Positions 29,509-62,649 are shown, counted from the first letter of the stretch. The stretch: 64,000 nt of DNA from GCA_000165345.1 CM000432.1:896001-960000; one strand, 5' to 3'. Notes: generated by a model from the letters alone, not told the origin. Numbers and translations are program-made.

Positions 29509-32196
29509 TTATATATTTGTATTGTTGACTATATTAACATTTGATGTTAAATCTTTAGAATTTCCTGTGTAATTACTCCATTCTGTATTTAAATTTGTAT
29601 TATTTTGTATTAAAGAAGGAAATATTGGCATCATAAATGGATTTATGGATGGAATAAATGGTGAATAGGCTTGATATGGTAATTGTGTAGAAGAATATAC
29701 TCTTGCATGATTTTCCATGCTTAATTGATTATATCCTTGATCATTTTGCATATTAGAACTATTATTCATTCCAATACCATAAAATGGAGGATTACAACTA
29801 CCAAATAAAGGAGGTATACAGAAATTCAAAGGTAGAATATTTCCAAAAATAGGAGCATTATTTGAAGCAATACTTCTTGAATTTAAATTTGTATTAAACA
29901 TTTGTATCAAATTGGATCCATGAAATATGTTTGGAATACCATAAATGAAATTAGAAGATGCTAAATCTTCGGTACCATTTTCAATATGACTACTATCATT
30001 GATATTTTTGACCTCAAAACTTAAAGTATTAATAGTGTTATCATTTTCGTTATTTGTTTGTATTCCTTTTTTTTTATTTTCTTCCTGAGTTGATAAGTAA
30101 AAACTATAAGCTTGTTTATACTGTGATTCTCTTTCCATATTTGTGGAATTTAATGAAACCCTGAAAATTTGAGAAAGCTTCTGACCCTGTTTAAAATAAG
30201 TTACTTTCCATCCTCTTGGCTTCTTCCACCACTCAATCTTACTTTTTTGTAAATCTAACTTTTCGTGATCCAACCTTTGAATCTTACTAGCATTTTCAGA
30301 ATCATTATTAGATTTTCTCTTTTTTATCATCTTTTTTTCTAATACTTGATTTTGATTTTCATCAGTATAAAAGTATTTTCTATTATAATTAAGATTTTCA
30401 TTATTATTAAAATCTCCATTATCTTTGTTTTTATCATAATAAACTTTGTTATTTCTTAACATATCGCATAAAATCTCCTTACTTTGTCCCCCCTTAATAC
30501 CATATTTGATATCTAACAAAGTATAAATACCGTTTGACATTTGCATGCAATATTGCCCGCCTTTAGAAGTTTCAATTTGATCTTGATTAAACTCGAGATT
30601 ATCTTTAAGGTTTGAGTTAGATTCCAGTAATTTTGAAGATGAAATACCAGAACACTCACAATTTTCAAGAGTCTGAACTTTACCTTGTAATCTTGTGGCA
30701 ATCCTCCTTTTTTCGTTATAATTGGGGTAAACAGATCTATATCCATTGTCTTGAATATCAGTATGTAGCAAATTCATACAAGACTTTTTGTGGTTAATCA
30801 TTGTATTAAGGCAGACTTTTGAATTAGAATTTAAAACATTCTTAGAATTAAATTGAAAGAATCCATTTCCATAGTTTGTACAGGCAATAGGAGAATGTCC
30901 GGCAAGACCTCCTTCTGATAAGTAATTTAAATCATCATTTATTCTGGATGCATTTTCTATAATTTTATTCCATTGATTCAAATTGAATTCATTCTTTTGA
31001 GTTCCAATTTCTTCTACTCCAGCCATATTGATAATTTGAATGATATCATTTACTGCATAAAGGTGCTGTAATTCTCTTCTCGTTGTTTTATTTAATACTT
31101 CCTTGACAGTTTTCACGCCAAGAATGGAATCAAATATACCCCTAAGCAAAAAATTATAGTCATTGCTCCCAGCCTGATTAACCCCAAGTATCTGGGTAGC
31201 TTGACTAAATAACAAATCATATTCATCAATTGTGAACTTTTTGTTGCTTGTATATTCTAATACCAAGTTTCTTAGTTGTTTTCTACAGCTTGAATGTAAT
31301 TTTTCCCACTCAAAATGCTCACTATTATATTCTTCAAGTTGATTAAAGAAGTCAGAGTCAATGGATGAGAATAATAACATTATCTTTTGAATTAAATCGA
31401 CTGTTTTATGCTCGTGAGAGCTTTGAATTGAACAAAACTTCAAGGAAGGATCACTAAATTTATAGTATTCCGTCTCTTGAACTACCTTTGAGTTTTTATT
31501 TAAATTCTTATTAGAACAATCAGCAGTTTTTCTTTTAGAATAAGTAGATTTACTACTTTCTATAGATCCAATTTCCAAAAGAGTAGAATAAAATCCCTCA
31601 GGTAAACAGTTGATTGTTGCTCCATGTATTTTTTCTAGAAATTGAATTGCTCTTTTTGCAGCTCCTTCTTTACCAAATTTCTTACAACTCCATTGCTTAC
31701 AAGACCATTCATTATTATTTAACCATTCTACAATTACTTTACGTTTTTCCTTGTCTTCTTTAATGACTGAATTAAACTTGTTCATTTTTAAATTGATTGA
31801 ATTTTTATCATTTTCATGAGCTTGTATTTCATTTAAATGTGAATTTGACTCAACATTGGACTTTTTATGCTCTTCAAATTCTCTGATAGGAAAAGCTGGG
31901 TTACAACAATCAATCACTTGATCGCTACTACTAGCTGTTGTTGTTAAATAGTAATTTTTAGAATTTACTTGGTCCATATTATGCGGAGAAAATCCTTGAA
32001 TCTGGTCAAAATTTTGTATTATATTTTCACTATTATTCTTTAACTTATGATAAACCAGTTTACTATGAAATTCATCTTCAATTTCTGATTTAACTCCAGC
32101 TTGTTTGGAATTTTCTACGGTATCACAATATTCTGAAACTATTATAAGTTGTTCTTTTGATACTAATTCATCGTCAATTTTTGACTCACCAATCAT
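29509..32196 (-). CDS. ApiAP2-family transcription factor with two AP2-like domains (895 aa)
   Basis: KIEWWKKPRGWKVTYFKQGQKLSQIFRVS...YKQAYSFY and VIVEWLNNNEWSCKQWSCKKFGKEGAAKRAIQFL follow the apicomplexan AP2 pattern (V-x-W...W-x-A-x-W...K-x-FS...A-x-x-A). Rest is N/S-rich low complexity. A 1.4-kb motif-dense upstream region lies at 32197..33577. Confidence 0.6.
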   Translation of the reverse strand: MIGESKIDDELVSKEQLIIVSEYCDTVENSKQAGVKSEIEDEFHSKLVYHKLKNNSENIIQNFDQIQGFSPHNMDQVNSKNYYLTTTASSSDQVIDCCNPAFPIREFEEHKKSNVESNSHLNEIQAHENDKNSINLKMNKFNSVIKEDKEKRKVIVEWLNNNEWSCKQWSCKKFGKEGAAKRAIQFLEKIHGATINCLPEGFYSTLLEIGSIESSKSTYSKRKTADCSNKNLNKNSKVVQETEYYKFSDPSLKFCSIQSSHEHKTVDLIQKIMLLFSSIDSDFFNQLEEYNSEHFEWEKLHSSCRKQLRNLVLEYTSNKKFTIDEYDLLFSQATQILGVNQAGSNDYNFLLRGIFDSILGVKTVKEVLNKTTRRELQHLYAVNDIIQIINMAGVEEIGTQKNEFNLNQWNKIIENASRINDDLNYLSEGGLAGHSPIACTNYGNGFFQFNSKNVLNSNSKVCLNTMINHKKSCMNLLHTDIQDNGYRSVYPNYNEKRRIATRLQGKVQTLENCECSGISSSKLLESNSNLKDNLEFNQDQIETSKGGQYCMQMSNGIYTLLDIKYGIKGGQSKEILCDMLRNNKVYYDKNKDNGDFNNNENLNYNRKYFYTDENQNQVLEKKMIKKRKSNNDSENASKIQRLDHEKLDLQKSKIEWWKKPRGWKVTYFKQGQKLSQIFRVSLNSTNMERESQYKQAYSFYLSTQEENKKKGIQTNNENDNTINTLSFEVKNINDSSHIENGTEDLASSNFIYGIPNIFHGSNLIQMFNTNLNSRSIASNNAPIFGNILPLNFCIPPLFGSCNPPFYGIGMNNSSNMQNDQGYNQLSMENHARVYSSTQLPYQAYSPFIPSINPFMMPIFPSLIQNNTNLNTEWSNYTGNSKDLTSNVNIVNNTNI

Positions 32197-33577: not shown

Positions 33578-36500
33578 TTAGTAATAATCAAAGTGTAGAA
33601 AAGCATCATGCCTTTTTGCTGATAAAATAGCAACTTCTCTTCTAAGAAATAAGTGGAAAAGTTTGTTATGATAATATGTGTGAAGAATTGAGTTGATTGA
33701 GGAAGAAATACTCTTGGTAATCAAGTTTGTGAGTAGAATAATTATTAATATTAAAGAAATCAATGCCAAAAGCGATATAACAAATGTAAATAAAGTAAAG
33801 AATAGCTGGGATCGAAAAATTAATTGTATCTGCCCTTTTACAATAAAGAAGTGAAGAGCAAAGAAAACCAAGAAGAAGAAATAAGCTGATTTAAAGTATT
33901 TATTGTAAAGGGTGAGCTGAAGAAAGCCATTGTTTCTTGAAATAACATAATTCCAAATTGTTATAAAGAATGTAAGCTCTCTTAATATCAAAGTCTCATT
34001 TATATTTGTAAGCTTACGCTTTTTTCTACGTTTTAAGAGATTATTAATTATATATAAAAAAATACGAAACCTTTGTATAATTAATACCCATAAAAATCCA
34101 AGAGGATTGAGAAATGACCATACAAGAAGAGCAAAATGTGAAGCCAATATTACTTCAAAGAATACTGTAATTATTGTTGATTCTGAAAATCTAATCCATT
34201 TTTCCGGGTATCGAAGAAAGTTAAAGTATAGATTCTTCTTATCAATGTAAGAAAGCGTGTAAAAGGAGAGAGTAATCAACATACAAATTAACCATTGAAT
34301 TATATACCAAATTCTACAATCATTTGGTCTTATGAACTCGGCTTGACAAATTGCAAGAATGTGGCGTTCAATTCTAGAATTCTGCAAATGAAAACTCTGA
34401 ATTTGGCTTGGAAAATTACTCAAAATTGGAGAATATTCCCCTGGGCTTACATTATTCTGGTAACTTATAGGGCTATTATTTGAGTTGGTTATCTGTGAGA
34501 CTGAATTGTTACTATTGTTCTTATTGCTTATTCCCATACTTGCACATAAATTACTGTTCGATGCAATCCCTCCATTATTTACATTAAAAAGAAAGTGCTC
34601 ATCTGAGAGAGTCATACAAGAATTCATTGCCTCAAATGGATTTTGAGAAAACATTGTATTACTATTTGGAGAGTTACTGCTTGAAACAAGATCTATGTCG
34701 TAAATCATATTAAGATTATTACTTTGAGCAATGTTCTGGGATTGAAGCAATCCAGAATGTTTAGTACACATCCAAATTGAGTAATATTCATAAAAAACAT
34801 CCTTCAAAGTCCAATACTTATGAGATGGAAGTTTTTTGTACCAGAACTTTTCATTTATTAATTCAATAATATTTTGGCTAGGTTCAATTTCGTTAAATTG
34901 GTTCATCGGGCTATTGGATTGTAAAGGAGAGTTGTTCATATGAGAATGAATTAACCTGGAAGCTGGAGTTAATAGAGAGTCTGAATATTTATCCAAAATA
35001 TGTACGATCTTTTCATTATACATTGGTGAAACATTTGATGAATCCTGATTGGCATTTAATGATGACGAAAAGCTTATCATATTCTCAGAATTTGTTTCAT
35101 TAAGTTCCAACCCTTCGCCTTGAAATTCATTATCTGGACTTAATAAGCTTAAAAGATCAACACTTGATGGAACAAAAAGATGGAACAATCGATCTCTCTC
35201 GCGAATTGAAATGGTTGCAAGAGATAAAGAAGCGTTTGAAATTGCTGATAGTAAAGAAAGGTAAACTGAAACAATCATTAAATCAATACTCTTGCATAAA
35301 ATAATCCAATACATTGATATGAATAAAATAACTAGACGAATTAATCCAAAAAAAATAAAAGTATTGGTTTTTCTCTGAATCTCTGTGTCTTTGCAATTAA
35401 AGAGCCTTCTGATTCTAAAGAAAATATCTTCAAAAGCATCATAACCAACAAGAGTACATTTCAGTCCAAAAATTAATGCTCTTAAATATGATTTTGATTT
35501 TATTGGAAGGTTATTAGCAAGTAAGAATGTTGGAGAAATCTGTTTTCTTGTACTCAGAAATGATGAAAGCCCTATCATAAAAAGAACATATTTTGACAAG
35601 ATCCAGTTTAATATGAACTTAAAAGGAGCCAATATAAACAATTCTTTTCTCTTCATTATTGAGTTTCGATTTTGGACATTGCTTTGTTCAGCATCACTTA
35701 TATCATTATGTCTGAAGAAATTGCGATTATTACTATTCACTCTTTCGCTTTTACAGCTATTACTGGTATTAATAGTACTATGGACATTTGAATTATCATT
35801 GGCATGAAAGTTCTGGCACTTCTTTCTTTTTAATGAATTTTTGTTTTCTTCTAATAAAGAATTAAGAGAAGATGACGATTTATCACCCTTGGAAGAATTA
35901 TATAAGGGGTTAGTGGTTTTATATTGTTGATAACCAATTAAAGAACCATCAACTGAATCATCAAAAGATTTAATAGAATTATCAGTGTTAGCTCTATCCA
36001 TATTGTTTCTTATATATCTTTTCTTATAAGATGAAGGAGTATCACTTACAATTAATACTGTTAATAAAATCATAATAGCACTTGCAAGAGTTATTATAAT
36101 AATAGCAACAATCTTATTATCAATTGACTGGCTTGATTTAAAAGAAGGATGGCTTATTATAGCTTCTGAAATAACGCTCCTTTTCACGACAAAGTTGTAG
36201 AATGGCTTGGTATCTTCGCTGATTTGATGTTTTCTAAGTACAAACTTTAAAATAGATGGAGAAAAACCTAAATTTTGAAGAACAAATAAAGATAGAGGTT
36301 GAGGTAATTTTGCAGATCTTGGCATTCTTGATCTTAAAAGGAAATCCATAGTTTTACTAAGATGATTTTCCATAACAATTCCATTAGAAAGAAGATCCAT
36401 ACTATCCCAGGTTGAAAACAAAAGCAAATCTACAAATCTTGGAGTACTAACATCACATGTATAATTCAACAAGGACTTTGTGGAAAATTCAAGAGGAGAG

Positions 36501-38788
36501 ATATTATTGATTCGTGTTTCATACGTATGACTTGGAAAAGGAAGGGGAAATGATTCATCGTAAATGCTCCTCTTGAATTGATCGTTGGGATACTTATTAT
36601 TAAGATCAGAAATACGATGTTTCACTGTCGTTTGGGATTTCGGAGTATGTTTTCGGGATTCCATTTTAAGCTTCGAATTAAACAGCTTCTTATTAGAATA
36701 AGACAACTTTGGTAAAAAAACTGAAATCACATATTGTAAAAGTTTAACAGCAATAGCCTCTTCAGACTGCTTACAGTAGTCGAGCTCAACTAAAATATCA
36801 TTAAAAGCTTTCGGTCTATTCTTTAAAAGAGTGAAAAGAGCAAGATCTACACCTTTTTGATAGATAGAATTGGAGTCAGTTGGCTGATGTTGTTTCAGAG
36901 CCAGTTTGAGAGCACCGTGATATGCTTTAGTACAGAGATGTTTGTATTTGGAAAGGCTATTGGTTGTAGTTTGCTCAATACATTGGTTGAACAAATTTGT
37001 GAAAAATATCGTCAATAAATTATTTCCACGAAGAATGCTAATACTAAGGGAATTGGATTCCTCTAAAGAATTTGTCTCACCAATAACTAATAGAGGATAA
37101 AGGAATGGATTCAGTATTTTGTTTCTGGAAAGTTCTTCCAGATTTTCAGTTTTTAATTTGACATCTCTTTTAAAGACCATAGAAATAATCTTTGAAGTTA
37201 ATAGTAAGACAGACTGTTCAAGCTGGTCTTTTTCATTATTGCCTTGGCTAACCAAATTACTATTAATTAAAGTGAAAATATTTGCTTTAATCATTTCACT
37301 GAATCTCTTCATTATTTCACTCTTCTTGATCAAAATCATCATTTGAGTAACACTTTGGAAATTGGAATTAGGTTTATACATTGGAACACCAAACATAACC
37401 TTTGTGAGAGTTTCAATACTTCGATCAGAGTACAGTGCTTGAATCAGAAAAGATCTATTTGAATGTGGATCAACCATAAATAGAAGAACGAATATATTCA
37501 TCAAAACAATATTTGGAGTATTTTTTGACATTAAAGAAGTTCCTTTGAACATTAAATCCATGAACCTTCTTCTAAAAGAAAATCCATATGGTTGTTCTTC
37601 GCTATATAGGCGAGAAATTAAAAGTTCAATTGGCATAATTTGATTATTCCCAGTTTTATGGGGATTACATATATGCCCTTCTGGTAATTTTCTTGCTTGG
37701 ATATAGAATTCTAATAATCTGAAGATTAATTTGGGATAATGCAGTTTACATGCCCACCAGAGAATAGTTAGACCATTTTGATCAGTGGAAGAGCATATTA
37801 CTACATTTTCAAGTGAAATTTCAATCTCGAGTAATTCTAAGAGTATTTGTTCTCTGATGTAGTACTTAATTCCCAATAAAAGTCTTCTAGCAGCAGAATG
37901 ATGGTATTCTGGAATATTCTTTCTAATATCAAACTCTTCAAGCGAATATCTTTTTGAACTAATCAATATTGGAAGAATATCAATTCTATTTTCAAGAACT
38001 GCCAAAGTGACAGGATCAAAGCCAGCATAATTTCTAATCCAAGGAAAAGCTCCAAAAGATAATAGAGCGCTAACAGCTTCTTTGAAATTCACCATTAATG
38101 CATGTATGAGTGGAGTGTTTCCTAGAATATCTCTAAAATTGGGATTTGCTCCTTTTTCAAGCAAGTAATTTACCAATCCTATATCAAGTTGGCTGATTGC
38201 ATAAAACAAGGGAGTTCTTCCATCGGAATCAGTACAATCTAGGTGAGCTTTTCCTTTTTCTATTAATAATCGAACAACTTCTTTGTGTTGATTCTTGCAA
38301 GCTAGAAGAAGTGGGGTGAATCCATATTCACTATAAAGGTCAACAGAAGCTCCTAAAGAAAGAAGGTGGGATACAAAAAAATAGCCAATTTCTCCAGAAA
38401 TTTTGCATGCTGCAGTCAAGGCGGTTTCTGAGTGTTTACTTTTTCCAAATTTATAACCAATTCTTGAAAGAAAGCTGGAAATATTGATAAATCTTCCAAT
38501 ATCTCGTGCAATTATTGATTCTAAGAGTTGTACTGGGGCAGATAAACGATCACCGGAATATCTTGTGAGTATAGATTTGGAATTTTCCATACTTTCCTCA
38601 AATTTTGACCAACTACTCATTGAATAGTATTCCGATTCCGTGATTTTACTACTTTCAGAAATTTTATATCCATATTTTCTTTTCGTTTTTGGACTAACTA
38701 TTTTTCCAGTAAATATTATTAAAATGATAATTAAAGTAAATCCAATGATTCTTGAGAATTTGGAATAAATTCGAATATGATGATTCAT
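33578..38788 (-). CDS. giant ankyrin-repeat polytopic membrane protein A (1736 aa)
   Basis: N-terminal signal/anchor, ankyrin repeats (GFTPLLLACKNQHKEVVRLLIEKGKAHLDCTDSDGRTPLFYAISQLDIGLVNYLLEKGANPNFRDILGNTPLIHAL), 12 or more hydrophobic helices in the C-terminal 900 aa. Paralogous to the adjacent downstream gene. Confidence 0.75.
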   Translation of the reverse strand: MNHHIRIYSKFSRIIGFTLIIILIIFTGKIVSPKTKRKYGYKISESSKITESEYYSMSSWSKFEESMENSKSILTRYSGDRLSAPVQLLESIIARDIGRFINISSFLSRIGYKFGKSKHSETALTAACKISGEIGYFFVSHLLSLGASVDLYSEYGFTPLLLACKNQHKEVVRLLIEKGKAHLDCTDSDGRTPLFYAISQLDIGLVNYLLEKGANPNFRDILGNTPLIHALMVNFKEAVSALLSFGAFPWIRNYAGFDPVTLAVLENRIDILPILISSKRYSLEEFDIRKNIPEYHHSAARRLLLGIKYYIREQILLELLEIEISLENVVICSSTDQNGLTILWWACKLHYPKLIFRLLEFYIQARKLPEGHICNPHKTGNNQIMPIELLISRLYSEEQPYGFSFRRRFMDLMFKGTSLMSKNTPNIVLMNIFVLLFMVDPHSNRSFLIQALYSDRSIETLTKVMFGVPMYKPNSNFQSVTQMMILIKKSEIMKRFSEMIKANIFTLINSNLVSQGNNEKDQLEQSVLLLTSKIISMVFKRDVKLKTENLEELSRNKILNPFLYPLLVIGETNSLEESNSLSISILRGNNLLTIFFTNLFNQCIEQTTTNSLSKYKHLCTKAYHGALKLALKQHQPTDSNSIYQKGVDLALFTLLKNRPKAFNDILVELDYCKQSEEAIAVKLLQYVISVFLPKLSYSNKKLFNSKLKMESRKHTPKSQTTVKHRISDLNNKYPNDQFKRSIYDESFPLPFPSHTYETRINNISPLEFSTKSLLNYTCDVSTPRFVDLLLFSTWDSMDLLSNGIVMENHLSKTMDFLLRSRMPRSAKLPQPLSLFVLQNLGFSPSILKFVLRKHQISEDTKPFYNFVVKRSVISEAIISHPSFKSSQSIDNKIVAIIIITLASAIMILLTVLIVSDTPSSYKKRYIRNNMDRANTDNSIKSFDDSVDGSLIGYQQYKTTNPLYNSSKGDKSSSSLNSLLEENKNSLKRKKCQNFHANDNSNVHSTINTSNSCKSERVNSNNRNFFRHNDISDAEQSNVQNRNSIMKRKELFILAPFKFILNWILSKYVLFMIGLSSFLSTRKQISPTFLLANNLPIKSKSYLRALIFGLKCTLVGYDAFEDIFFRIRRLFNCKDTEIQRKTNTFIFFGLIRLVILFISMYWIILCKSIDLMIVSVYLSLLSAISNASLSLATISIRERDRLFHLFVPSSVDLLSLLSPDNEFQGEGLELNETNSENMISFSSSLNANQDSSNVSPMYNEKIVHILDKYSDSLLTPASRLIHSHMNNSPLQSNSPMNQFNEIEPSQNIIELINEKFWYKKLPSHKYWTLKDVFYEYYSIWMCTKHSGLLQSQNIAQSNNLNMIYDIDLVSSSNSPNSNTMFSQNPFEAMNSCMTLSDEHFLFNVNNGGIASNSNLCASMGISNKNNSNNSVSQITNSNNSPISYQNNVSPGEYSPILSNFPSQIQSFHLQNSRIERHILAICQAEFIRPNDCRIWYIIQWLICMLITLSFYTLSYIDKKNLYFNFLRYPEKWIRFSESTIITVFFEVILASHFALLVWSFLNPLGFLWVLIIQRFRIFLYIINNLLKRRKKRKLTNINETLILRELTFFITIWNYVISRNNGFLQLTLYNKYFKSAYFFFLVFFALHFFIVKGQIQLIFRSQLFFTLFTFVISLLALISLILIIILLTNLITKSISSSINSILHTYYHNKLFHLFLRREVAILSAKRHDAFLHFDYY

Positions 38789-39373
38789 TATTGCAAGTGA
38801 GAGAAGAAGAGCAATATTGAAAAGAAAGGAATTTGAATATGAATTTAAATGGCTTGGGTATCAGTTAAATATTAATAAAGTTAGTATTCCAATTAAAATA
38901 TAACCCAAATACATTTGTATTTTAATTAAAATATTAAATATAATCTAATTAATTAATTCAAATATAAATATTTACATCATGCATGCACCAGAAATACTTG
39001 AAGATTCATCATAAGACTTACAAAAAAGTCAAATCTTTTAAATATATGAATTAGCTTTGCTTTATATTAATCAATAATGGGCAGTTATGAATGTTCAACA
39101 ATGATTTTGGAATTGATCATTCAATTAAGAAATTTCTTCATTTACTTTTTCCAAAGCATAAATATCAAATATGGTGGCAAATTGAATGATAATTTATCCA
39201 GTATTATGAAAATGAACTTTTGAGAAGCAACTCTTTATTGTAAATAAGACAAAATATATTTTTATAAATGAACAAAAATAACTTCCAATAGTAAATTAAT
39301 TATCGTCCAAGCAAGAAGTTAATTTTGTGATTACTATATATAAATGTAATTATATAGTAAACTCTATTTATAT

Positions 39374-39411
39374 AAATAAATAAATAAATATATATATATA
39401 TATATATATAT
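39374..39411. repeat. (ATAA)n followed by (TA)n microsatellite
   Basis: aataaataaataaatatatatatatatatatatata lies in the intergenic region between the two ankyrin-TM genes. Confidence 0.85.
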
Positions 39412-39716
39412 TCGTATTTGTGTATAAATATAAATATATATTTATAAATGTAAATGTATATAAATATGTATGTATATACACATTGATATTTATTTATTTA
39501 TTTAGAAATTGACGTATTATTTAATGATTGAATATAAGAAAAATGTGGGTACTACTCAATTGAAATGCGCGCCAAAAATTATAGTTAAACACACAAAATT
39601 GGGACGGAAATGCATGCAAAATCGAAAAAATAAAGGTACCGAAAAAAATAATAATAAATTTAAAAATTAATGATTTAAAAGTTTTAGTAAATTAATGATT
39701 GAAGTAAAACGTATAA

Positions 39717-42700
39717 TTAACTAAAGTTAACATTGATTAACAATACAAACATTAAAATTGACCCAAAAAGCAAAGGTAACTTTACTGGAGTATTCAGAAT
39801 ATAAAAGGGGGAAGTGAGGAATGGTAAAAGTCTCATTGTAGTTTCAACTGAATTCAGAAGATTTGAACATATTGGAAGAATATCATAAACGTCTGGTACC
39901 CATTGCCAAAATTCAATAGTTAATATATGTATTTCAACCATAATATGCATTATATATAATAATGAAGCAGAAAGTAGTAGTGTTGAAATTGGAACAACAT
40001 TCCATAGTCTTATGGTTTTTATTGGCAGAGAATTAATTTCAACATAGCAGTAAACCAATACAAAAGAGATAGTTACAATTGCCAAAACATCTCTGAAAAG
40101 GTCAATAGGCTTCCAAAAATATTTGCATATTCTATGGGAAGTTCTTCTTGAATCAGCCCAAATAAAGAAAGGATATATTTGTGCTTCAAGGACTTGGTAG
40201 TATGAAGTTTCAGAATTACTTTCAATATTGCATAGATTAGCCTTGGAATAATTAATTTCGAAATGTTCAAAGTCTTGGTACTGAATTTCTGTGGAATAAT
40301 GATTTAATTTAAGGAAATTACTGAGCCTAATTTCTGGGCTCTTACTATTAATGGAATTCACAGGGGTTGTAGAGTTAGAAGGTTGAAGTAAATTTAAAGT
40401 ATTTTGAGGTGGATTTAATGAAAAACTATCAGTTACTTGAGTTGTCTTATTATTCCCAGTTTGAATATTCGCATTTGAGATTTCCAAAGGTCCACCATAT
40501 GCAATTTCTCCTACACTTTGCAATCTAATATTGGGATTACTCTGAGTTTTAAGTGAGTTATTTGAAGAATTCTTGGTTAAATACGCACTTGGTGAATTAT
40601 TTCCATTTGAACTTAATATAGAGTTCTTATCATCAATTATAAAAGACTTATTTGTAGATTTTTTATCTCTTGATTGTTTTTTTTCTCCTGAAAATAATGG
40701 AGTACCAATTGAATTGGCTCTGCTCACTTCCTTTGATGAGTAAGATTGAGAAATTAAAATTTTGCTATTTTTAGCATTTGGAAGTAAAATACTTAAAGGA
40801 GTTGAGAGAGCAGAATTAAAGATACTTGAGAGTGAATGGAAATGATATAAAGCAAGAATTACTGATATGATTGGGGAAGAAATCATTGAAAGTAATTGCC
40901 AATAGTATATAAATGCTGTAAAATGGAGAAATGAAACTGTTAATGGGTAAAATCTTGTAAATTGGAAAAGATGAGGATATTGGAATTGATAAAGCTTTCT
41001 ACATGAGTTTATATTACCAAATATAAATGTTAAATCTGCAGAGCTATATTTCCAGTCTCTAGAAATTGAAAATTCTGGACTACTATAACAATTAAAAGGT
41101 AACTTCATGGTAATTAGAAATGAAAATATGAGACAAATAACTTGAACAATAAATAATAAACGGTAACATTTGAAAGTTTTTTCAACATTATTATAACATA
41201 ATTTTGAAATTTCCAAAAATCCAATTTCTGGAATCTCTGTATAAGTATTTTCTGGAGAAAGATTATTCCTGGAAACTAGAAGCTTTTTAATTTGCTTTGA
41301 AGATATATCTTTCATATCAGTTGTTTGAGAAAGCGTGGCATTTCTAAGATTACTATGAAGATAAATTGCTCTCTTTGCTGTTTTAATTACTTGAGCATTT
41401 GTTTGTTCATAAAGAATCATAATTTCTGGTAATAATAAACTATTATTACATTTAAAACAAGAATTCAATTGGTCATACATATTCTCATCAATTCTAAATC
41501 CATGAAAAGTATAAATGATGATTGCTATACAAGTTAGTAATACAAAGCATACGATTTCTTCGTAAATTTGAGAAATTACAATCCATATAAAGAATGTAAG
41601 AATTGAAATTAGCTTTATAAAATTAAAGGCTTTTGAGAATTTGATAATAAGTGAAATAAGTGAATATTGGAATGACTCATAGAGATTTTCGTGATTACTT
41701 CTATACTTTCTCACTGGGAATTCTGAAACTTTATTAATTAAAAAACAAGCTTTAATGGAATTTAAAAGTCCTAACTTAATATTATTTTTTGAAGGAAATG
41801 GGATATTTAGCATAAAAACCAAGCCAAAATCCATTGTAAAATTACATCCCAAATCAGACAATACAGTTTCTTGGTTTATTTGACTTGAATATTTTATCAG
41901 CTTATTCTTAGCTGGATTACAAATCGAATAAAAACTTAAATTTGAATTGCAGTATATGGAAAAAAGTGTCAAAGCTGTAACGAAGCAAAGGATTACAAAT
42001 ACTATATCAGATTTTGTTAGCTTATTTTCCCAAGGAAGATTGGATATTTCTCTTAATTTCTCTATTAAACTCAGCTTGATTGGACAACCTTCATTAGTTT
42101 TACTTGTTCCGAAACTTTCAATAAACTCCATTTGGCCTTTCTCATTCTCAACATTATACATATTATCGTAATTATTATTGGAATTCCAAAAATGATAATT
42201 TTCGCTCTCCGAATTACCAAAATCTTCTTTAAACCCAAAAATATTCTTTTTATCATCAATTCCTACTGAAGAACCCAAATTATCCTCATCTATAGTATCT
42301 TTTTTATTTGAAGAAAAATTCATCTCCCAGTACCCACTCTTTGAATAATAATGTCTAACATTACCACTTTGAGTACCATAATATAAACAATAACTTGGAA
42401 GTCCACCAAATAGTTCAAGAATACTTGAAGGTTTATAATCTATTAAAGCAAGTAAATTTAAGCTCTCCATCAACTGTTCAGCAGAAAATAATTTTACGAA
42501 TCTTGAGGACAAAAGTGCATGCAATACCGGTAATGTGTCTCTCTGACCTTTATATTTATATAAAATTGTGGCGGCCCTTTGCAGAGGGGAATATGCATGC
42601 TCATCAAATGGCGGGAAATCACTCGGAAGAGCATCCAATAAGGCTAGAACATGAATTGCATCTGATGGAGATTTATAACTAACTCTGGTAAGGATTTCTC

Positions 42701-45700
42701 CGATAGTATCGGGTCTGAGCTTAACAATCGAATAAATTGCATCGGTACTAGCTTCACCAAATGGATATAAGAAATGGCTAGGGATAATACTAGGGTGAGC
42801 ATAAGAAGAAGTTGGTAATGAAGAAGGAGAAGAACCGGAATTGAATCCTGAAGGATTTGAGTTTGGTTGTAAGTTTGAGGAGGAAGAAGATGGGTTACAT
42901 TGTTGTTGGTTTGGATGAGAAGTTGAATATCTAAAAAATTGTGGATTTTCATGCAAATATGATCTTCCTTCAAATGGTTCATTAAAAAGATCTCTTGAGA
43001 CTCCTGGATTTGAGAAATACCTAGCAGATTCATCAGCATATTGATCATAAATATCTGGGCTACTTTTCGTTTTGAAGTTTGACGTTTTATACAAACGAGA
43101 ATTTGAGGATTTGTCATTTAATTCTTGGTAAATTGTGTCATGGAAGTTCATCATGTTATTGAAGCTATGATTTTCAATATGACTATTGCTATTTCTCTTG
43201 CAGTATTTGCAATTATTTCTACAGTTTCTCGTATACTTTAAGGAGTCTCTGTATGCTTTGTAGTCTCTATTCTTTGAGTTAAAGGGATCATTACAAATGG
43301 AATTTTCCATCAAATTTCTATTTTTAGAGAAAAGTTCCGTATTCAGAGCCAAAGAATTATTTGAATTGTATTTGAAGGAGCTGTGAGAATTATCAGAATC
43401 AAGTCCAACAGCGTACTCTAATAGTTTTCTAATATTCTCAATGGATTTATGTGAAGGACCTCTTCCAATAACAATTTTTGCAATGCTTTCAGGACTGTCG
43501 TCAACTTTAACATAATTAATGGAGAAGATTGACCTTAATCTTGGAGGAAGGATAGTTAAAGGAAGATCTTCAGGAGGAATAGTGTTAGAAGGAGTTCTAT
43601 TTTGAGACTCTTCATTCTGAAGGAGAAAATTTATATTTGTCCTCCATTTATTATCAAAGAAATTCTTCGTTCCAGTACCACTATTTGCAAAGAATTCTTT
43701 TGGTTCTCTAAGAATTTTCTTTTCAGTTCGATTTGATAAATCTCTTATTAGTTTCTTCTTCTTAAGCTTGAGAGAAAGAACAATATCATCATTTAAATCA
43801 TTTCCAAATAAATTACCATCTTGATGTTCAAAGTGGGAAAATTGGTTCTCATTAAGCTGTAACATGGATGTAATATCAACATTCTTCACATTCTTTAAAA
43901 TATGGACCGAATTCATCACTCTTCTTCTCCATATTGAAGTGCTTCCCATTGTTTCTTCGGAGTATTTCACTGCTATTTCCAGAAGATAGTAAATAATTCT
44001 TGTGGATAACTTCCTACTGACTGCATAATATATTGGATCAGTCATACTGGATCTATTTGACCAGATATTAATGAAAGAGTATGAAATATTAAACTTTTCT
44101 TTCAAGGTATGAATAATACTCTTTAATGCTCTTAAAGGCTGCTTTGATTTTGCCAAAATCTGTAAAATAAGAGGAGAATTGGTTTTTGGATCTTTAAATT
44201 GAAGCATATCAATAATTAGCTTCTTTGGTATTCTCTGAGCCTTTTTGATGATTAAATTTAATGGATAAATACCATATCTATCATCTCTATGGGGATTACA
44301 ATTCTGATAACCTAACCATCTATTACGTATTGCTCTACTATAAAAGTCAAGAATTATTTGTATTTGCTTAATATTACCATAATAAGCAGACCACCAGAAA
44401 GCTCCTCTTCCTTCTTCATCAGTTACTTGACAAATCATTGCTACCTTCTTTTTGCTTTCCATTTTGAGTAATCTATTCAAAATTGAATCTGAGATTCGGA
44501 TTTTAACAATATCAAGAACGTGTCTCGCCTCTTTTTCATAATCCTTCAGTTGTTTGAAGAAGTGATCACGGTTAAATTGTTTTTTAAAAGTCTTTCCTAT
44601 AAGTTTAAGATCAGATTTATCTTGGAAAGTTACATATTCTAATATAATGGATCTAATATCATTATCAGAGGTATTAATATCATAATTAGCATGATTTACA
44701 ATCCTTTCAATCATTTTACCGTCATTTTCACGAATTGCAAGATCCATTACATCTAGACCAGAGATAGGTGAAATTCTTAATGGATCTCCTCCATTGTCCA
44801 TGATCAAGCTTAGCATTGCTCCATTATGGTTTTCTAAAGCTATCATTAAAGGATTTAAACCAGTTCTTGGATCCCATGTATTAACACAAGCTCCATTTGA
44901 GATTAAGATCTCAGCCATTTCAAGATCATTATTTTCAACAGCATAGAATAGAGAGGTATGATTATAGTTATCAACCATATTTACAAGTTTTTTTTGATCA
45001 CATTCTAAATTATGAGTCAAAAGTTCTGGAAAATGAGAATCTGATTGTGTAGATTGACTCTTGGGTAGTTGAGTATATGTGGAAGAACCATCATTTTGAA
45101 GTTGATTCAAAAAATCAAGATCTAGGTCTTTTTTCTTATTAGAGCAATTAGAATATATGGTTGATCTTGAAGAATTAAAATAGCTTAAGGAAGATGAGGG
45201 AGAAGAAGGTAAAGTTGTGGAATTTGAGAATTTGGGAAAAGATAAAGTGGAATGATTAAGATCAGAAGATGAAATATTGGTAATATTAAAGCCAGAGGAT
45301 GAATAGGAATATGTATCAAAATCTTCCGGAGTATTTGGATCATTTTTGGATGTATCATTAACATTTGAAATTTCAGCAAGAATGAATTTGACAATTGAAT
45401 GGTTGGATTTACTTACAGCTAGAGTAAATAATTGAGGAAACTTTTCAAAAATGTGAATATCGAGACCATATTCAATAAGTTTCTTAAGTATATGCAAAGA
45501 TCCACTCCTTTTACGTCTTATAAGATTATATAGAATATGGTATCCTCCTTCAGTATCTAAGACTTTGCTTTTAATATTATTAAGTTTCTTGCAATAGATA
45601 AGATTTCTTTTTTTATATTCAGTATTATAAGTGGTAATATTAAGCATAAGAGGTTCAATAATATCCAAAATAGCTCTTGAGCTCATATCAGTTTCAAGAA

Positions 45701-46280
45701 AATCTGCAATTAGATATAATGGATGAATGTAATATGTAAGTTTTTCTTCTAACGGTACTTTTTGTACTGGCCTTTTGTAATAAATTGGAATAATTGCATT
45801 TTTTCGAATTCTAGCATTAAATGAAAAAAGCATAGATCCATCATGGTTAATAGCAGAATAGAGCTTGTTATCTGAGATATCCTCATGGTCGTTTTCAAAA
45901 TATACTAAACTCTCAAAGAAATCTTCAGTATCGTCAAGTTTTCCTGTTAACAACAGATTCTTTGTAACCTCAGGAAGTTCAACAAGTTCATTAATAAATT
46001 CAGGAAACATCATTTCCTCTCCACCAAGAATTTTATTATCCTTATATAGCTTATCTTCAGATAACTGTTCTAATCCTGCTCTTTTATAGTAGTAATTATC
46101 ATGAACATTGTTGCAATTAGCAATAGGTCCTCTAATTTCAGATCTTTCGACAAATTGAATACTTTTTAAAGCCTCCAAAAAACTCAGAATTAGGAAACAA
46201 ATTAGAATAGTAAAATTAATTCTCTTGGATTCATTATTTCTTAAGAAGACATTTTTTGTCTTATTTTGTGTGTTTTTCAT
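39717..46280 (-). CDS. giant ankyrin-repeat polytopic membrane protein B (2187 aa), tandem paralog of 33578..38788
   Basis: Same architecture: signal, ankyrin block (NHTSLFYAVENNDLEMAEILISNGACVNTWDPRTGLNPLMIALENHNGAMLSLIMDNGGDP), C-terminal multi-TM region. Shared block VAMICQVTDEEGRGAFWWSAYYGN...FYSRAIRN...CNPHRDDRYGIYPLNLII aligns with VICSSTDQNGLTILWWACKLHYPK...FYIQARKL...CNPHKTGNNQIMPIELLI in gene A. Confidence 0.75.
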   Translation of the reverse strand: MKNTQNKTKNVFLRNNESKRINFTILICFLILSFLEALKSIQFVERSEIRGPIANCNNVHDNYYYKRAGLEQLSEDKLYKDNKILGGEEMMFPEFINELVELPEVTKNLLLTGKLDDTEDFFESLVYFENDHEDISDNKLYSAINHDGSMLFSFNARIRKNAIIPIYYKRPVQKVPLEEKLTYYIHPLYLIADFLETDMSSRAILDIIEPLMLNITTYNTEYKKRNLIYCKKLNNIKSKVLDTEGGYHILYNLIRRKRSGSLHILKKLIEYGLDIHIFEKFPQLFTLAVSKSNHSIVKFILAEISNVNDTSKNDPNTPEDFDTYSYSSSGFNITNISSSDLNHSTLSFPKFSNSTTLPSSPSSSLSYFNSSRSTIYSNCSNKKKDLDLDFLNQLQNDGSSTYTQLPKSQSTQSDSHFPELLTHNLECDQKKLVNMVDNYNHTSLFYAVENNDLEMAEILISNGACVNTWDPRTGLNPLMIALENHNGAMLSLIMDNGGDPLRISPISGLDVMDLAIRENDGKMIERIVNHANYDINTSDNDIRSIILEYVTFQDKSDLKLIGKTFKKQFNRDHFFKQLKDYEKEARHVLDIVKIRISDSILNRLLKMESKKKVAMICQVTDEEGRGAFWWSAYYGNIKQIQIILDFYSRAIRNRWLGYQNCNPHRDDRYGIYPLNLIIKKAQRIPKKLIIDMLQFKDPKTNSPLILQILAKSKQPLRALKSIIHTLKEKFNISYSFINIWSNRSSMTDPIYYAVSRKLSTRIIYYLLEIAVKYSEETMGSTSIWRRRVMNSVHILKNVKNVDITSMLQLNENQFSHFEHQDGNLFGNDLNDDIVLSLKLKKKKLIRDLSNRTEKKILREPKEFFANSGTGTKNFFDNKWRTNINFLLQNEESQNRTPSNTIPPEDLPLTILPPRLRSIFSINYVKVDDSPESIAKIVIGRGPSHKSIENIRKLLEYAVGLDSDNSHSSFKYNSNNSLALNTELFSKNRNLMENSICNDPFNSKNRDYKAYRDSLKYTRNCRNNCKYCKRNSNSHIENHSFNNMMNFHDTIYQELNDKSSNSRLYKTSNFKTKSSPDIYDQYADESARYFSNPGVSRDLFNEPFEGRSYLHENPQFFRYSTSHPNQQQCNPSSSSSNLQPNSNPSGFNSGSSPSSLPTSSYAHPSIIPSHFLYPFGEASTDAIYSIVKLRPDTIGEILTRVSYKSPSDAIHVLALLDALPSDFPPFDEHAYSPLQRAATILYKYKGQRDTLPVLHALLSSRFVKLFSAEQLMESLNLLALIDYKPSSILELFGGLPSYCLYYGTQSGNVRHYYSKSGYWEMNFSSNKKDTIDEDNLGSSVGIDDKKNIFGFKEDFGNSESENYHFWNSNNNYDNMYNVENEKGQMEFIESFGTSKTNEGCPIKLSLIEKLREISNLPWENKLTKSDIVFVILCFVTALTLFSIYCNSNLSFYSICNPAKNKLIKYSSQINQETVLSDLGCNFTMDFGLVFMLNIPFPSKNNIKLGLLNSIKACFLINKVSEFPVRKYRSNHENLYESFQYSLISLIIKFSKAFNFIKLISILTFFIWIVISQIYEEIVCFVLLTCIAIIIYTFHGFRIDENMYDQLNSCFKCNNSLLLPEIMILYEQTNAQVIKTAKRAIYLHSNLRNATLSQTTDMKDISSKQIKKLLVSRNNLSPENTYTEIPEIGFLEISKLCYNNVEKTFKCYRLLFIVQVICLIFSFLITMKLPFNCYSSPEFSISRDWKYSSADLTFIFGNINSCRKLYQFQYPHLFQFTRFYPLTVSFLHFTAFIYYWQLLSMISSPIISVILALYHFHSLSSIFNSALSTPLSILLPNAKNSKILISQSYSSKEVSRANSIGTPLFSGEKKQSRDKKSTNKSFIIDDKNSILSSNGNNSPSAYLTKNSSNNSLKTQSNPNIRLQSVGEIAYGGPLEISNANIQTGNNKTTQVTDSFSLNPPQNTLNLLQPSNSTTPVNSINSKSPEIRLSNFLKLNHYSTEIQYQDFEHFEINYSKANLCNIESNSETSYYQVLEAQIYPFFIWADSRRTSHRICKYFWKPIDLFRDVLAIVTISFVLVYCYVEINSLPIKTIRLWNVVPISTLLLSASLLYIMHIMVEIHILTIEFWQWVPDVYDILPICSNLLNSVETTMRLLPFLTSPFYILNTPVKLPLLFGSILMFVLLINVNFS

Positions 46281-46784: not shown

Positions 46785-48458
46785 TTAACCGTCCCTAGAG
46801 TCACCAAAAGACTCCATATTTGGATTTTGCTCAATATTGTTCTGAACAGGATCTTTTTTCTTAGATACAGAGCTAAGAACATCGTCTATTCTGAGGAGCA
46901 TAAGAGTGGCTTCTACAGCAGTCTTATAGACTTGTTGCTTGACAGCAAGTGTATCCCAGATGCCGAGTTCCGTAACATTTGTAATAGCGCCAGTACATCC
47001 ATTAATTCCATGAACAGGTTTCTGCCCCCTGGTTGCAGATGAAGGTAGATAATGAGATTTTAATAAAGTCAAAGTCTTCATTACATTAGCTCCACAATTT
47101 TGAGCTAGAGTCTTTGGTATAATTTCCAGAGCTTGGGCGAAAGCTTTGTAGGCCCATACTTGGGTATCATCAATAGAAAATGACTTTTCATTCAAGTAAC
47201 AAGAAATGGCCATTTCTGTACCACCTCCGCCAGGAAGTAGAGCTGGATCAAGAAGGATATTTCTTGCAACAGCAAGAGCGTCATGGAGATTTCTCTCGAG
47301 CTCATTTAAGACGTCCTTGGATCCTCCTCGTAAAAGAATGGAGCATGCCTTTGGAGTTTTTGATTCGGTCAGGAAGCAAAAGTATTCATCTCCAATCTTC
47401 TTGACCTCGAATCTTCCGCAGCAAGTACCTACATCATTTGGTGTAAGCTCTTCTGTTCTGCTAGCAATAGTAGCTCCAGTGACTCTAGCGATTCTATTAT
47501 TATCGCTCTTCCTGACCCTTCTAATTACAGAAATTCCTGCCTTAACAAGGAAGTGTTGAGCAAGATCAGAAACACCTTTTTCTGTGAATACAACATTGCA
47601 ACCAGTTGCAATAATATCCTTACACATAGCTTCAACTTCTTCCTCCTCCTGTCTTAATAGAGCCTCCCAGTCTGCCTCCTTAGTGATTTCTACATTTGTC
47701 TGACTTTCGCCTTTCTTGTATTCAAGAGTACAGTCCAATAACAAAACCTTTGGATTAATGATCAATCTCTTCATTCGCGGGTGGACTACATCCTTGTTAA
47801 CAACTACACCATCTAAAACATAGCTATCCTCAATCTCACCTCCTGGAATCTTTTCAATTCTTACATATCTCTTAATATCAATTTCTTTTGGTGAACCTGA
47901 ATTAGCAATTGAGACAGTCTCAGCTGCTTTTAATGCCATAGAACTAATTAAACTACCCCATCTTCCAGAAAATTTAGTTTTTAAACAGGAGTCAACTACA
48001 CTAACCAAAGATTCTTTGTTATTTACATCCAATTTAACGCTCATTTCCTCCATGAACTTTATAGAGTCATCTAGTGCTCTTAAATAACCCTTTGCTATAA
48101 TTGTTGGATGTATGTTTTTCTGTAAGAGTGGCTCTGCACAAGCCAAGAACTCTCCTGCTAGAACTACAACACTTGTTGTTCCATCTCCTACTTCTTCATC
48201 TATAGTTCTTGAGAGTTCAATTATAGACTTTGCTCCTGGATGAGCAACATCAACCTCTCTCAAAATACTGTTTCCATCATTTGTAAGAACTATTCCACCC
48301 AAAGGATCTAAAAGCATTTTTAACATTGCTTTTGGGCCCAAAGTTGTTCTAACAACATCTGCAACAGTTTTTCCAGCTTGAATATTTCTTAACTGGGCTT
48401 TTCTTCCTTGATCTCTTTGAGAAGGTTGTTGTACAACCAAAACTTGATTTGGCATCAT
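46785..48458 (-). CDS. CCT3: T-complex protein 1 subunit gamma (CCT3)
   Basis: 557 aa. [43 protein letters not shown]...[17 protein letters not shown]...[16 protein letters not shown]...[14 protein letters not shown]...[16 protein letters not shown]...[19 protein letters not shown] matches CCT-gamma blocks. Confidence 0.92.
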
Positions 48459-59613: not shown

Positions 59614-60182
59614 ATGTAAAATTTAGTCTTTAAATTCGATTAGAATTTCTTTATTTAAGTAATTATTTTATAATTTATAAAAAAATTTGTGTTTTGGCGC
59701 CACATTTTTTTTAATCAAAAAAAAAGTACCGATAATTTTTTCTATACCGGTTACACGTAATTAAGTTATAAACCGGTATTTTTTTTTTTTTTTTTAATTT
59801 AAACAAAAATAAAAATTTGAAATTATGATATAATTGAACAATTATTAAATAAATCAATATATTCTGAAGATTAGCACTAATAAAATATTTTGAATTTAAC
59901 ATTTAAATAGTAAATGAAAGTACAAATTCAATAAACTTAGAACCCAAAGGAATATACAAAAACTCCGCCCCACACTATCATCTTTTGGATCTATTAACAA
60001 TATTAAACATAAATTGAATTAATTATTTTTGTGTGTATTGATAAAGAGATATTTTTTCTTTGTTATTATTATTATTTAATACATAAACAAAAAAAAAAAA
60101 AAGAAAAAGAAAGTGCATAAAAAAGAATTCAGAGTTGAAATTAAATATAATATAACAAACATTAACATTTTACTAATAAATT

Positions 60183-60893: not shown

Positions 60894-60899
60894 TTATTA

Positions 60900-62456: not shown

Positions 62457-62571
62457 CACAATAAAATAATTTTTAAATATTTTAATATCTTAATAATATA
62501 TTTACGCGAATGCATGCATGCATGCATATATGTATTACTAATAAAACAGAGATATAGATAATTAATTACAA

Positions 62572-62649
<78 letters not shown>

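What the first reader, a model, noticed from the sequence alone, without database searches (positions are those of the whole stretch)
33578..46280. Tandem pair of paralogous giant ankyrin-repeat polytopic membrane proteins of unknown family
Two head-to-tail minus-strand genes of 1736 and 2187 aa share a complex architecture. Each has an N-terminal signal/anchor, an ankyrin-repeat block, a long middle region and a C-terminal domain with roughly 12 or more TM helices. They also share a colinear block (TD-x-x-G-x-x-x-WW-x-A...FY-x-x-A...CNPH...I-P-x-x-L-I). Ankyrin repeats fused to a large multi-pass membrane domain suggest a channel or transporter scaffold, but none of the TRP, KAP or ZDHHC signatures is evident. 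Such lineage-specific tandem duplicates in a compact parasite genome are candidates for parasite-specific membrane biology.
Basis: seen in the sequence. Interest (0 to 1): 0.7.

Follow-up and report, generated by a model that had tools for sequence, protein, structure and literature searches.

The report
Cryptosporidium-only ankyrin membrane protein pair
Two neighbouring Cryptosporidium parvum genes encode giant proteins that combine a signal-peptide-like start, an ankyrin-repeat domain and 8-10 membrane helices; they are real, ancient and found only in this genus, but they are already annotated and their function is still unknown.

Summary
The window is Cryptosporidium parvum Iowa II. Both ORFs exist exactly as described (1736 aa and 2187 aa) and are already in GenBank as uncharacterised Ank proteins (EAK87747, EAK87746).

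**Confirmed**
- An N-terminal hydrophobic segment that looks like a signal peptide.
- Ankyrin repeats.
- A long all-helical middle region.
- A C-terminal multi-pass region.
- The shared WW...FY..A...CNPH block.

**Corrected**
- There are 8-10 conserved membrane helices, not 12 or more.
- The shared block is a family-specific, degenerate extension of the ankyrin stack. It scores 38-55 bits between the two families and 8 bits or less against about 100 generic ankyrin proteins.
- Beyond that module, only one short middle-region motif is modestly supported (E 0.002). The membrane regions are not detectably homologous.

The tandem pair, with its flanking genes, is conserved as far as C. serpentis, so it predates the radiation of the genus. 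A profile of protein A's membrane region, searched against 1.84 billion proteins, found only Cryptosporidium. Pfam and PDB searches found nothing outside the ankyrin repeats. There is no TRP, DHHC, KAP, PGG or Sushi signature.

The most likely reading is a pair of secretory-pathway or surface membrane scaffolds with an ankyrin domain outside the cytosol. This mechanism is inferred, not shown.

The parts
33578..38788 (-). Gene A, 1736 aa (GenBank EAK87747 / XP_625958 / UniProt Q5CQP4, 'Ank repeat protein with possible signal peptide')
   Evidence: ORF. It is 100% identical to the C. parvum Iowa II protein. Orthologs at 91-42% identity occur in 7 further Cryptosporidium species or lineages.
38693..38788 (-). 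A residues 1-32: N-terminal signal-peptide-like segment
   Evidence: Hydropathy peak at 14-32. All orthologs have a short basic n-region followed by a 10-15 residue hydrophobic core, although the sequence itself diverges. Invariant Y39-G-Y-K42 lies upstream of the alternative start M57, which supports the 1736-aa gene model.
37904..38548 (-). A residues about 81-295: canonical ankyrin-repeat stack (about 5 repeats plus cap)
37589..37903 (-). A residues 296-400: family-specific Ank-extension block (D..G....WW...FY..A...CNPH...P)
   Evidence: AF2 shows a helix pair at the WW repeat; the CNPH part has low confidence.
36104..37588 (-). A residues 401-895: conserved all-alpha middle region. It contains motif A650-693 (window 36710-36841), which weakly matches B1181-1224.
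   Evidence: AF2 predicts only helices, pLDDT 55-82. There are no Pfam hits. hhalign E 0.0019, above the reversed-profile nulls.
36047..36103 (-). A residues 896-914: first transmembrane helix
   Evidence: Ortholog-averaged hydropathy 3.13.
33581..35671 (-). A residues 1040-1736: polytopic region. It has a TM hairpin at 1145-1188, an S/N-rich loop, and a cluster of 5-6 TMs at 1491-1690 with many invariant polar residues.
   Evidence: The exhaustive profile search found only Cryptosporidium A-family proteins. No PDB or Pfam hit. AF2 failed, pLDDT 34.
39717..46280 (-). Gene B, 2187 aa (GenBank EAK87746, 'Ank, ankyrin repeats containing protein with 9 transmembrane domains at C-terminus')
   Evidence: ORF. 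Orthologs at 97-42% identity. The C. serpentis ortholog is 38% identical.
46158..46280 (-). B residues 1-41: N-terminal signal-peptide-like segment
   Evidence: Hydropathy peak at 20-38. Distant orthologs start directly with a classic short signal peptide.
44544..45563 (-). B residues 240-579: ankyrin domain, split by a poorly conserved S/N-rich insert (residues 311-425, window 45006-45350)
   Evidence: Pfam Ank_2 E 2.5e-13 at 444-539. Weak Ank_2 hit at 259-310. Conservation and composition profile.
44223..44543 (-). B residues 580-686: family-specific Ank-extension block shared with A
42609..42740 (-). B residues 1181-1224: middle-region motif weakly matching A650-693
   Evidence: (low-scoring HSP).
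39720..42083 (-). B residues 1400-2187: polytopic region with TMs near 1426, 1551, 1576, 1709, 1796, 2065, 2095 and 2166. It contains a stretch at 2123-2159 (window 39804-39914) that is invariant among the eight intestinal-clade sequences and nearly so in C. serpentis.
   Evidence: No PDB or Pfam hit.

Best explanation
A and B are two ancient tandem genes found only in Cryptosporidium. Each encodes a membrane protein built from four parts: a signal-peptide-like N-terminus, a large all-helical domain led by an ankyrin-repeat stack, a first transmembrane helix, and a further multi-pass region. The multi-pass region is interrupted by long S/N-rich loops.

The two proteins descend from a common ancestor at least in a derived ankyrin-extension module. 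That module is the defining signature of this small family.

Inferred mechanism: the N-terminal signal directs the protein into the secretory pathway. The ankyrin/helical domain then faces the lumen of a secretory compartment or the outside of the parasite and acts as a protein-binding platform. The conserved polytopic region anchors it and probably does more than anchor, because it carries many invariant polar residues and B has a ~37-residue near-invariant stretch. Candidate roles are signalling, transport or assembly with partner subunits, and the two proteins may work together as a pair.

Shown: gene structure, domains, conservation, synteny, specific shared module, absence of known-family signatures. 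Inferred: topology, partner binding, and any activity of the membrane domain.
For: - ORFs and architecture.
- Specific shared module: hhalign E 1.3e-17; invariant motif across 12 sequences; 38-55 bits between families against 8.1 bits or less for generic Ank proteins.
- Genus-wide synteny, TCP1-TCP1-B-A-AP2-like-..., in C. serpentis. The C. ryanae orthologs carry consecutive locus tags, FG386_002299 and FG386_002300.
- Signal-peptide-like N-termini in every ortholog of both families, despite sequence divergence.
- Strong conservation of the Ank domain (about 85-91% of the aligned sequences match C. parvum at a typical position) and of the TM clusters.
- Precedent for signal peptide plus Ank proteins in apicomplexan secretory organelles: TgRON9 and C. 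parvum cgd4_2420 (PMC3299665; PMC13432881).
Against: - Ankyrin repeats are overwhelmingly cytosolic in eukaryotes.
- Charge counts flanking TM1 are balanced in both families, so the positive-inside rule gives no independent support for the topology.
- A's putative ectodomain is poor in N-glycosylation sequons.
- In C. parvum B, the hydrophobic core is preceded by a 22-residue basic stretch, which could make it a signal anchor.
- No localisation, expression or interaction data were found.
- The membrane-domain structure could not be predicted.
- Homology of the two membrane regions is not demonstrable.
Confidence: 0.5

Rival explanations
1. The Ank repeats are cytosolic, with the N-terminal hydrophobic segment acting as a reverse signal anchor or first TM. 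The C-terminal helices form a channel or transporter that is gated or tethered by the Ank domain, TRP-like in logic.
For: - Ank repeats are normally cytosolic.
- A has 5 K/R in the 15 residues after the first hydrophobic segment, against 3 before it.
- A's last cluster has about 6 hydrophobic segments (1491-1690).
- Many invariant polar or charged residues lie in or near TM helices.
Against: - No ion-transport, TRP or transporter Pfam hit even at E up to 10.
- No PDB sequence-profile hit, although many TRP structures are in the PDB.
- No TRP box.
- The K/R-rich stretch after the signal is not conserved in C. serpentis, and the N-termini of distant orthologs look like ordinary cleavable signal peptides.
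- Three or more TM helices and more than 1000 residues separate the Ank domain from the terminal TM cluster.
Confidence: 0.25
2. A and B are not whole-gene duplicates. Only the ankyrin module, with its special extension, is shared, through partial duplication or domain shuffling. The middle and membrane regions are unrelated, and the similar architecture is coincidental or convergent.
For: - Outside A179-392 / B426-676, profile-profile comparison finds nothing significant for the TM regions. The score of 24.7 is within the null range of 13.6-26.8.
- The exhaustive profile search with A's TM region did not retrieve B-family proteins.
- TM spacing differs between the two proteins.
Against: - Both have the same order of parts: signal, Ank, long helical region, single TM, loop, TM hairpin, further TMs.
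- A colinear middle-region motif scores above all nulls (35.5, E 0.0019).
- The tandem head-to-tail arrangement is conserved across the genus, which is what a whole-gene tandem duplication produces.
- Orthologs themselves fall to 38-42% identity within the genus, so an older duplicate could easily have diverged beyond detection.
Confidence: 0.3
3. They are rhoptry or other secretory-organelle membrane proteins, functionally analogous to RON9. On this reading the Ank domain is delivered to, or exposed at, the host-parasite interface, where it binds host proteins.
For: - RON9 shows that signal peptide plus Ank proteins reside in the apicomplexan rhoptry neck. Its C. parvum ortholog cgd4_2420 is a hyperLOPIT rhoptry candidate.
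- A and B have a signal-peptide-like start.
Against: - There is no Sushi domain.
- In A and B the Ank domain is N-terminal and followed by 8-10 TMs, whereas RON9 has C-terminal Ank plus Sushi and one TM.
- CpRON9 is a different gene (cgd4_2420).
- No proteomic evidence for A or B was found in the searchable literature.
Confidence: 0.15

Closest known systems
Generic ankyrin-repeat domains (Pfam clan Ank; e.g. IkB, gankyrin, DARPins, ankyrin-R/B)
   Different: The stack continues into a family-specific degenerate extension (LWWA in place of LH.A, then FY..A and CNPH) that generic Ank proteins do not match (8 bits or less). The domain follows a signal-peptide-like N-terminus and is fused to a polytopic membrane region.
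RON9 (Toxoplasma TgRON9; C. parvum ortholog cgd4_2420), a rhoptry-neck signal peptide + Ank + Sushi protein
   Same: An apicomplexan protein that combines an N-terminal signal peptide with ankyrin repeats and a membrane anchor. It shows that Ank repeats can travel through the secretory pathway in this phylum (PMC3299665).
   Different: RON9 has a Sushi domain, its Ank repeats are in the C-terminal part, and it has a single C-terminal TM. A and B have no Sushi domain, an N-terminal Ank domain and 8-10 TMs. CpRON9 is a different gene.
TRP channels (TRPA/TRPV/TRPN-NOMPC)
   Same: Ank repeats in the same polypeptide as a multi-helix membrane domain. A's terminal cluster has about 6 hydrophobic segments.
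   Different: No ion-transport or TRP Pfam match, no TRP box and no PDB profile match. A and B also have a signal-peptide-like N-terminus, and extra TM helices and more than 1000 residues lie between the Ank domain and the terminal cluster.
Ank-containing zDHHC palmitoyltransferases (zDHHC13/17, Akr1) and KAP NTPase Kidins220
   Same: Ank repeats fused to 4-6 TM helices.
   Different: No DH[HY]C motif, no Walker A motif and no matching Pfam family.
Apicomplexan CRMPs (cysteine repeat modular proteins): giant signal-peptide proteins with a large ectodomain and about 9 C-terminal TMs (from my own knowledge, not tested here)
   Same: The overall layout is the same: signal peptide, very large extracytosolic region, multi-pass C-terminus. 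CRMPs also act in paralogous pairs in Toxoplasma.
   Different: CRMP ectodomains are Cys-rich (EGF/Kringle-like), not ankyrin. No sequence relationship was detected in any search here.

Membership tests
Ankyrin-repeat superfamily | Tandem 33-residue helix-turn-helix repeats that match Ank profiles and fold as an Ank stack | tested here: met
A/B common family (paralogy) | A specific shared derived module that generic Ank proteins do not have | tested here: met
   hhalign E 1.3e-17. Invariant C..D..G....WW...L.FY..A...G..CNPH....P. Reciprocal block profiles score 38-55 bits, against 8.1 bits or less for generic Ank proteins.
A/B common family (paralogy) | Homology of the middle and membrane regions | tested here: inconclusive
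   The middle motif has E 0.0019 and scores above all 9 reversed-profile nulls. The TM regions score 24.7, within the null range of 13.6-26.8. A's TM profile did not retrieve B in the exhaustive search.
TRP channels | 6-TM ion-transport domain (Pfam Ion_trans or TRP families) with a pore loop and TRP box | tested here: not met
   No Pfam hit at E up to 10 on the TM regions. No PDB profile hit. No TRP-box pattern.
zDHHC-Ank palmitoyltransferases | DHHC cysteine-rich domain between TM helices | tested here: not met
   No DH[HY]C motif. No DHHC Pfam hit.
KAP NTPases / Kidins220 | P-loop NTPase (Walker A) with inserted TM helices after the Ank repeats | tested here: not met
   No G....GK[ST] motif. 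No KAP_NTPase Pfam hit.
Plant-type Ank-PGG membrane proteins (ACD6/ITN1) | PGG domain (PF13962) following the Ank repeats | tested here: not met
   No PF13962 hit for A or B.
RON9 | Signal peptide + Ank repeats + Sushi/CCP domain + single C-terminal TM; orthology to TgRON9 | tested here: not met
   A signal-peptide-like N-terminus and Ank repeats are present, but there is no Sushi hit and there are 8-10 TMs. The published C. parvum ortholog is another gene, cgd4_2420.
Secretory-pathway (signal-peptide) proteins | Cleavable N-terminal signal peptide; N-terminal domain translocated into the ER lumen | not testable with these tools
   The n-region, h-region and polar c-region features are visible in all orthologs. 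No SignalP or DeepTMHMM is available, and the flank charges at TM1 are uninformative.

The most novel reading that the evidence does not exclude
A and B are subunits of a Cryptosporidium-specific membrane complex. Its ankyrin solenoids sit outside the cytosol, in a secretory organelle or at the parasite-host interface such as the feeder organelle or attachment zone. Its polytopic domain has an undescribed fold with transport, channel or signalling activity. That would be a new class of ankyrin-coupled membrane machine restricted to this genus.
Probability: 0.12. Interest if true: 0.75.

Novelty: new variant of a known kind. Interest (0 to 1): 0.4.

Why it matters
Cryptosporidium has a very reduced genome, yet every species examined, gastric and intestinal alike, keeps two genes of about 5-6.5 kb with a strongly conserved ankyrin domain and membrane core. 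This implies an important genus-specific function.

Extracytosolic ankyrin repeats are rare. If the predicted topology holds, these proteins would be unusual receptors or scaffolds, possibly at the unique host-parasite interface. Because no homolog was detected outside the genus, and so none in the host, they could also serve as parasite-specific targets or markers.

For now they are an annotated but uncharacterised orphan family. The value of this finding is as a well-delimited candidate for tagging and knock-down. It is not a discovery of a new mechanism.

Tried and rejected
1. **AF2 of A's membrane half (residues 880-1736, 8-sequence MSA).** Mean pLDDT was 34, which is unusable, so I ran no fold search on it.
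3. **Profile of the shared block against the 5.8-billion-protein index.** It returned nothing, not even the family's own members, although these score above 180 bits locally. The positive control failed, so I treat this search as uninformative and not as evidence of absence.
4. **Full-length A search.** It was swamped by generic Ank proteins, so I moved to Ank-free sub-regions.
5. **Pfam at E up to 10 and PDB profile searches on all non-Ank sub-regions.** The only hits were chance-level: Prenyltransf 0.1, Radical_SAM 0.5, and an 'apfi' chain at 0.33.
6. **Positive-inside analysis of TM1 flanks across orthologs.** The charges are balanced, so it gives no topology signal. Sequon and Cys density was also not decisive.
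7. **Literature.** I could not map A or B to cgd4_ identifiers. Searches by accession, product name and guessed neighbouring IDs found no paper on these genes.
8. **Identity with CpRON9 (cgd4_2420).** I considered this and rejected it because A and B have no Sushi domain and a different architecture.
Full report
**Identity of the window and the genes**

ORF listing confirms two minus-strand ORFs at exactly the stated coordinates: A at 33578-38788 (1736 aa) and B at 39717-46280 (2187 aa). They are separated by a 928-bp AT-rich spacer containing TA-rich tandem repeats.

A is 100% identical to C. parvum Iowa II EAK87747/XP_625958 ('Ank repeat protein with possible signal peptide'). B is EAK87746 ('Ank, ankyrin repeats containing protein with 9 transmembrane domains at C-terminus'). 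The genes are therefore publicly annotated but uncharacterised. I found no paper that deals with them.

**Architecture**

- Pfam detects only ankyrin families: A 138-220 and beyond, E 3e-26; B 426-540, E 2.5e-13. A weak extra Ank hit at B 259-310 shows that B's Ank domain is split by a poorly conserved S/N-rich insert at 311-425.
- Hydropathy, both on the single sequences and averaged over orthologs, gives the following.
  - A: an N-terminal hydrophobic segment, a strong TM at 896-914, a hairpin at 1145-1188, and a cluster of 5-6 segments at 1491-1690.
  - B: the N-terminal segment, then TMs near 1426, 1551, 1576, 1709, 1796, 2065, 2095 and 2166.
  - This is 8-10 helices, not 12 or more, and the spacing differs between A and B.
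- AF2 of A33-900 (mean pLDDT 60.5) gives a confident Ank stack (protein residues about 82-282, pLDDT 80-94). Next comes a helix pair at the 'WW' repeat, then an all-helical middle region with pLDDT 55-82.
- AF2 of A880-1736 failed with pLDDT 34.

**Is the pair paralogous?**

BLASTP gives a single significant HSP: E 2e-16, 27% identity, A180-393 / B430-680. Profile-profile comparison of the two ortholog alignments gives the same region at E 1.3e-17.

Ankyrin repeats are ubiquitous, so I tested specificity.

| Profile | Other family | Generic Ank-rich proteins |
|---|---|---|
| A block (296-400), A orthologs only | B family, 43-55 bits | 103 proteins, 7.4 bits or less |
| B block (reciprocal) | A family, 38-44 bits | 8.1 bits or less |
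| A canonical Ank part (120-295) | B family, 22-27 bits | up to 82 bits |

The block is therefore the informative, family-defining character, and the canonical repeats are not.

In a 12-sequence alignment of both families, C..D..G....WW...L.FY..A...G..CNPH....P is invariant. By inspection it reads as a degenerate Ank repeat (D..G.T.L-WW-A in place of D..G.TPLH.A) followed by the start of another (N....G..P..L). This is consistent with the AF2 helix pair.

Outside this module:
- A colinear middle-region motif (A650-693 / B1181-1224) scores 35.5 (E 0.0019). This is above all nine reversed-profile nulls, whose maximum is 26.8.
- The membrane regions score 24.7 (E 0.08-0.09), which is inside the null range.

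Common ancestry is firm for the Ank-extension module, plausible for the middle region, and undemonstrated for the membrane regions.

**Phylogenetic distribution and synteny**

- A orthologs occur in C. hominis, C. tyzzeri, C. meleagridis, the chipmunk genotype, C. ubiquitum, C. canis, C. bovis, C. ryanae and C. serpentis, at 91-42% identity.
- B orthologs occur in C. hominis, C. tyzzeri, C. meleagridis, the chipmunk genotype, C. ubiquitum, C. ryanae and C. xiaoi.
- The C. serpentis contig (gastric clade) carries TCP1(-), TCP1(+), a 1999-aa B ortholog (38% identity), the A ortholog, and then the same downstream genes as the window: the counterpart of the window's AP2-like ORF, a methyltransferase and eIF3c.
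- The tandem pair therefore predates the radiation of the genus and has been kept in place.
- An exhaustive HMMER search with an 8-sequence profile of A's membrane region, against 1.84 billion cluster representatives, found only the two Cryptosporidium A-family representatives. It found neither B nor anything outside the genus.
- The word-indexed search with full-length B found only Cryptosporidium.
- PDB sequence-profile searches with both membrane regions, and Pfam at E up to 10 on all non-Ank parts, were empty apart from chance-level hits.
- There are no DHHC, Walker A or TRP-box motifs.

**Topology and likely mechanism**

In every ortholog of both families, the N-terminus keeps the properties of a signal peptide: a short basic n-region, a 10-15 residue hydrophobic core and a polar c-region. 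The sequence itself is free to vary. Examples are MNTILLITKCILLFVHAT... and MLVSKLTRKWLIIVFVIFFVICES....

Invariant residues upstream of the alternative start M57 (Y39-G-Y-K42) show that the 1736-aa model of A, which includes this segment, is the correct one.

This favours insertion into the secretory pathway with the Ank/helical domain on the lumenal or extracellular side, followed by TM1 and the polytopic region. TM1 flank charges are balanced and give no independent support, so I put this topology at roughly 55-60%.

A precedent exists. TgRON9 and its C. parvum ortholog cgd4_2420 combine a signal peptide with Ank repeats and reside in, or are predicted for, the rhoptry (PMC3299665; PMC13432881). 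That protein has a Sushi domain and one TM, and it is a different gene.

The Ank domain is the best conserved part of both proteins. The TM clusters carry many invariant polar residues, and B has a ~37-residue stretch (EFWQWVPDVYDILPICSNLL.SVE.TMRLLP...) that is invariant among the intestinal-clade orthologs and nearly so in C. serpentis.

I therefore infer a membrane scaffold or receptor whose Ank solenoid binds protein partners and whose membrane domain has a function beyond anchoring. The two proteins possibly act as a pair. None of this functional part is shown.

**Rivals**

- A TRP-like channel with cytosolic Ank repeats has no positive sequence or structure support, but it is not excluded.
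- Module-only sharing (domain shuffling) is disfavoured by the colinear architecture, the middle motif and the conserved tandem arrangement. It cannot be excluded, because the TM regions show no detectable similarity.

**Verdict**

It is not a new discovery of genes, no mechanism can be established with these tools, and the TM count and full-length paralogy were overstated.

Interest is moderate. It is a clean, well-bounded candidate for parasite-specific membrane biology, with an unusual predicted extracytosolic ankyrin domain.

Noticed in passing
window 46785-48458 (-) and 49775-51448 (+): Two head-to-head TCP-1/CCT chaperonin genes, both 557 aa but only 29% identical, so they are different CCT subunits. 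The same divergent pair sits next to the B ortholog in C. serpentis (L001 1-753 and 1470-3140).
   Followed up: yes
window 29509-32196 (-): An 895-aa low-complexity ORF immediately downstream of A has a sub-threshold AP2 domain hit (E 2.5e-4, 21.7 bits against a cut-off of 33.3). It may be a divergent ApiAP2 factor. A syntenic 866-aa gene exists in C. serpentis.
   Followed up: partly
window 52120-58326 (+): A 2068-aa ORF has no Pfam hit at E <= 0.001. It is another giant orphan protein, and it lies in a region of strong positive GC skew (0.23-0.27).
   Followed up: no
window 38789-39716, especially 39335-39478: The intergenic spacer between A and B contains TA-rich tandem repeats with periods of 4, 6, 16 and 36 (TRF scores 52-111).
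   Followed up: no
window 38620-38788 (A residues 1-56): Some public annotations of A are 1680 aa, starting at M57 and so lacking the signal-like segment. Residues Y39-G-Y-K42 and Y55 are invariant across 8 species, which shows that the longer 1736-aa model is correct.
   Followed up: yes
window 45006-45350 (B residues 311-425): A poorly conserved insert, rich in S/N/T and in N-x-S/T sequons, splits B's ankyrin domain. A has no counterpart to it.
   Followed up: partly
window 60001-64000: GC content drops to 0.20-0.21, against about 0.26-0.35 elsewhere in the window.
   Followed up: no
tool result: The indexed homology search with the shared-block alignment returned no hits at E <= 0.1, not even the family's own proteins, which score above 180 bits with a local HMM. 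That negative result should not be used.
   Followed up: yes
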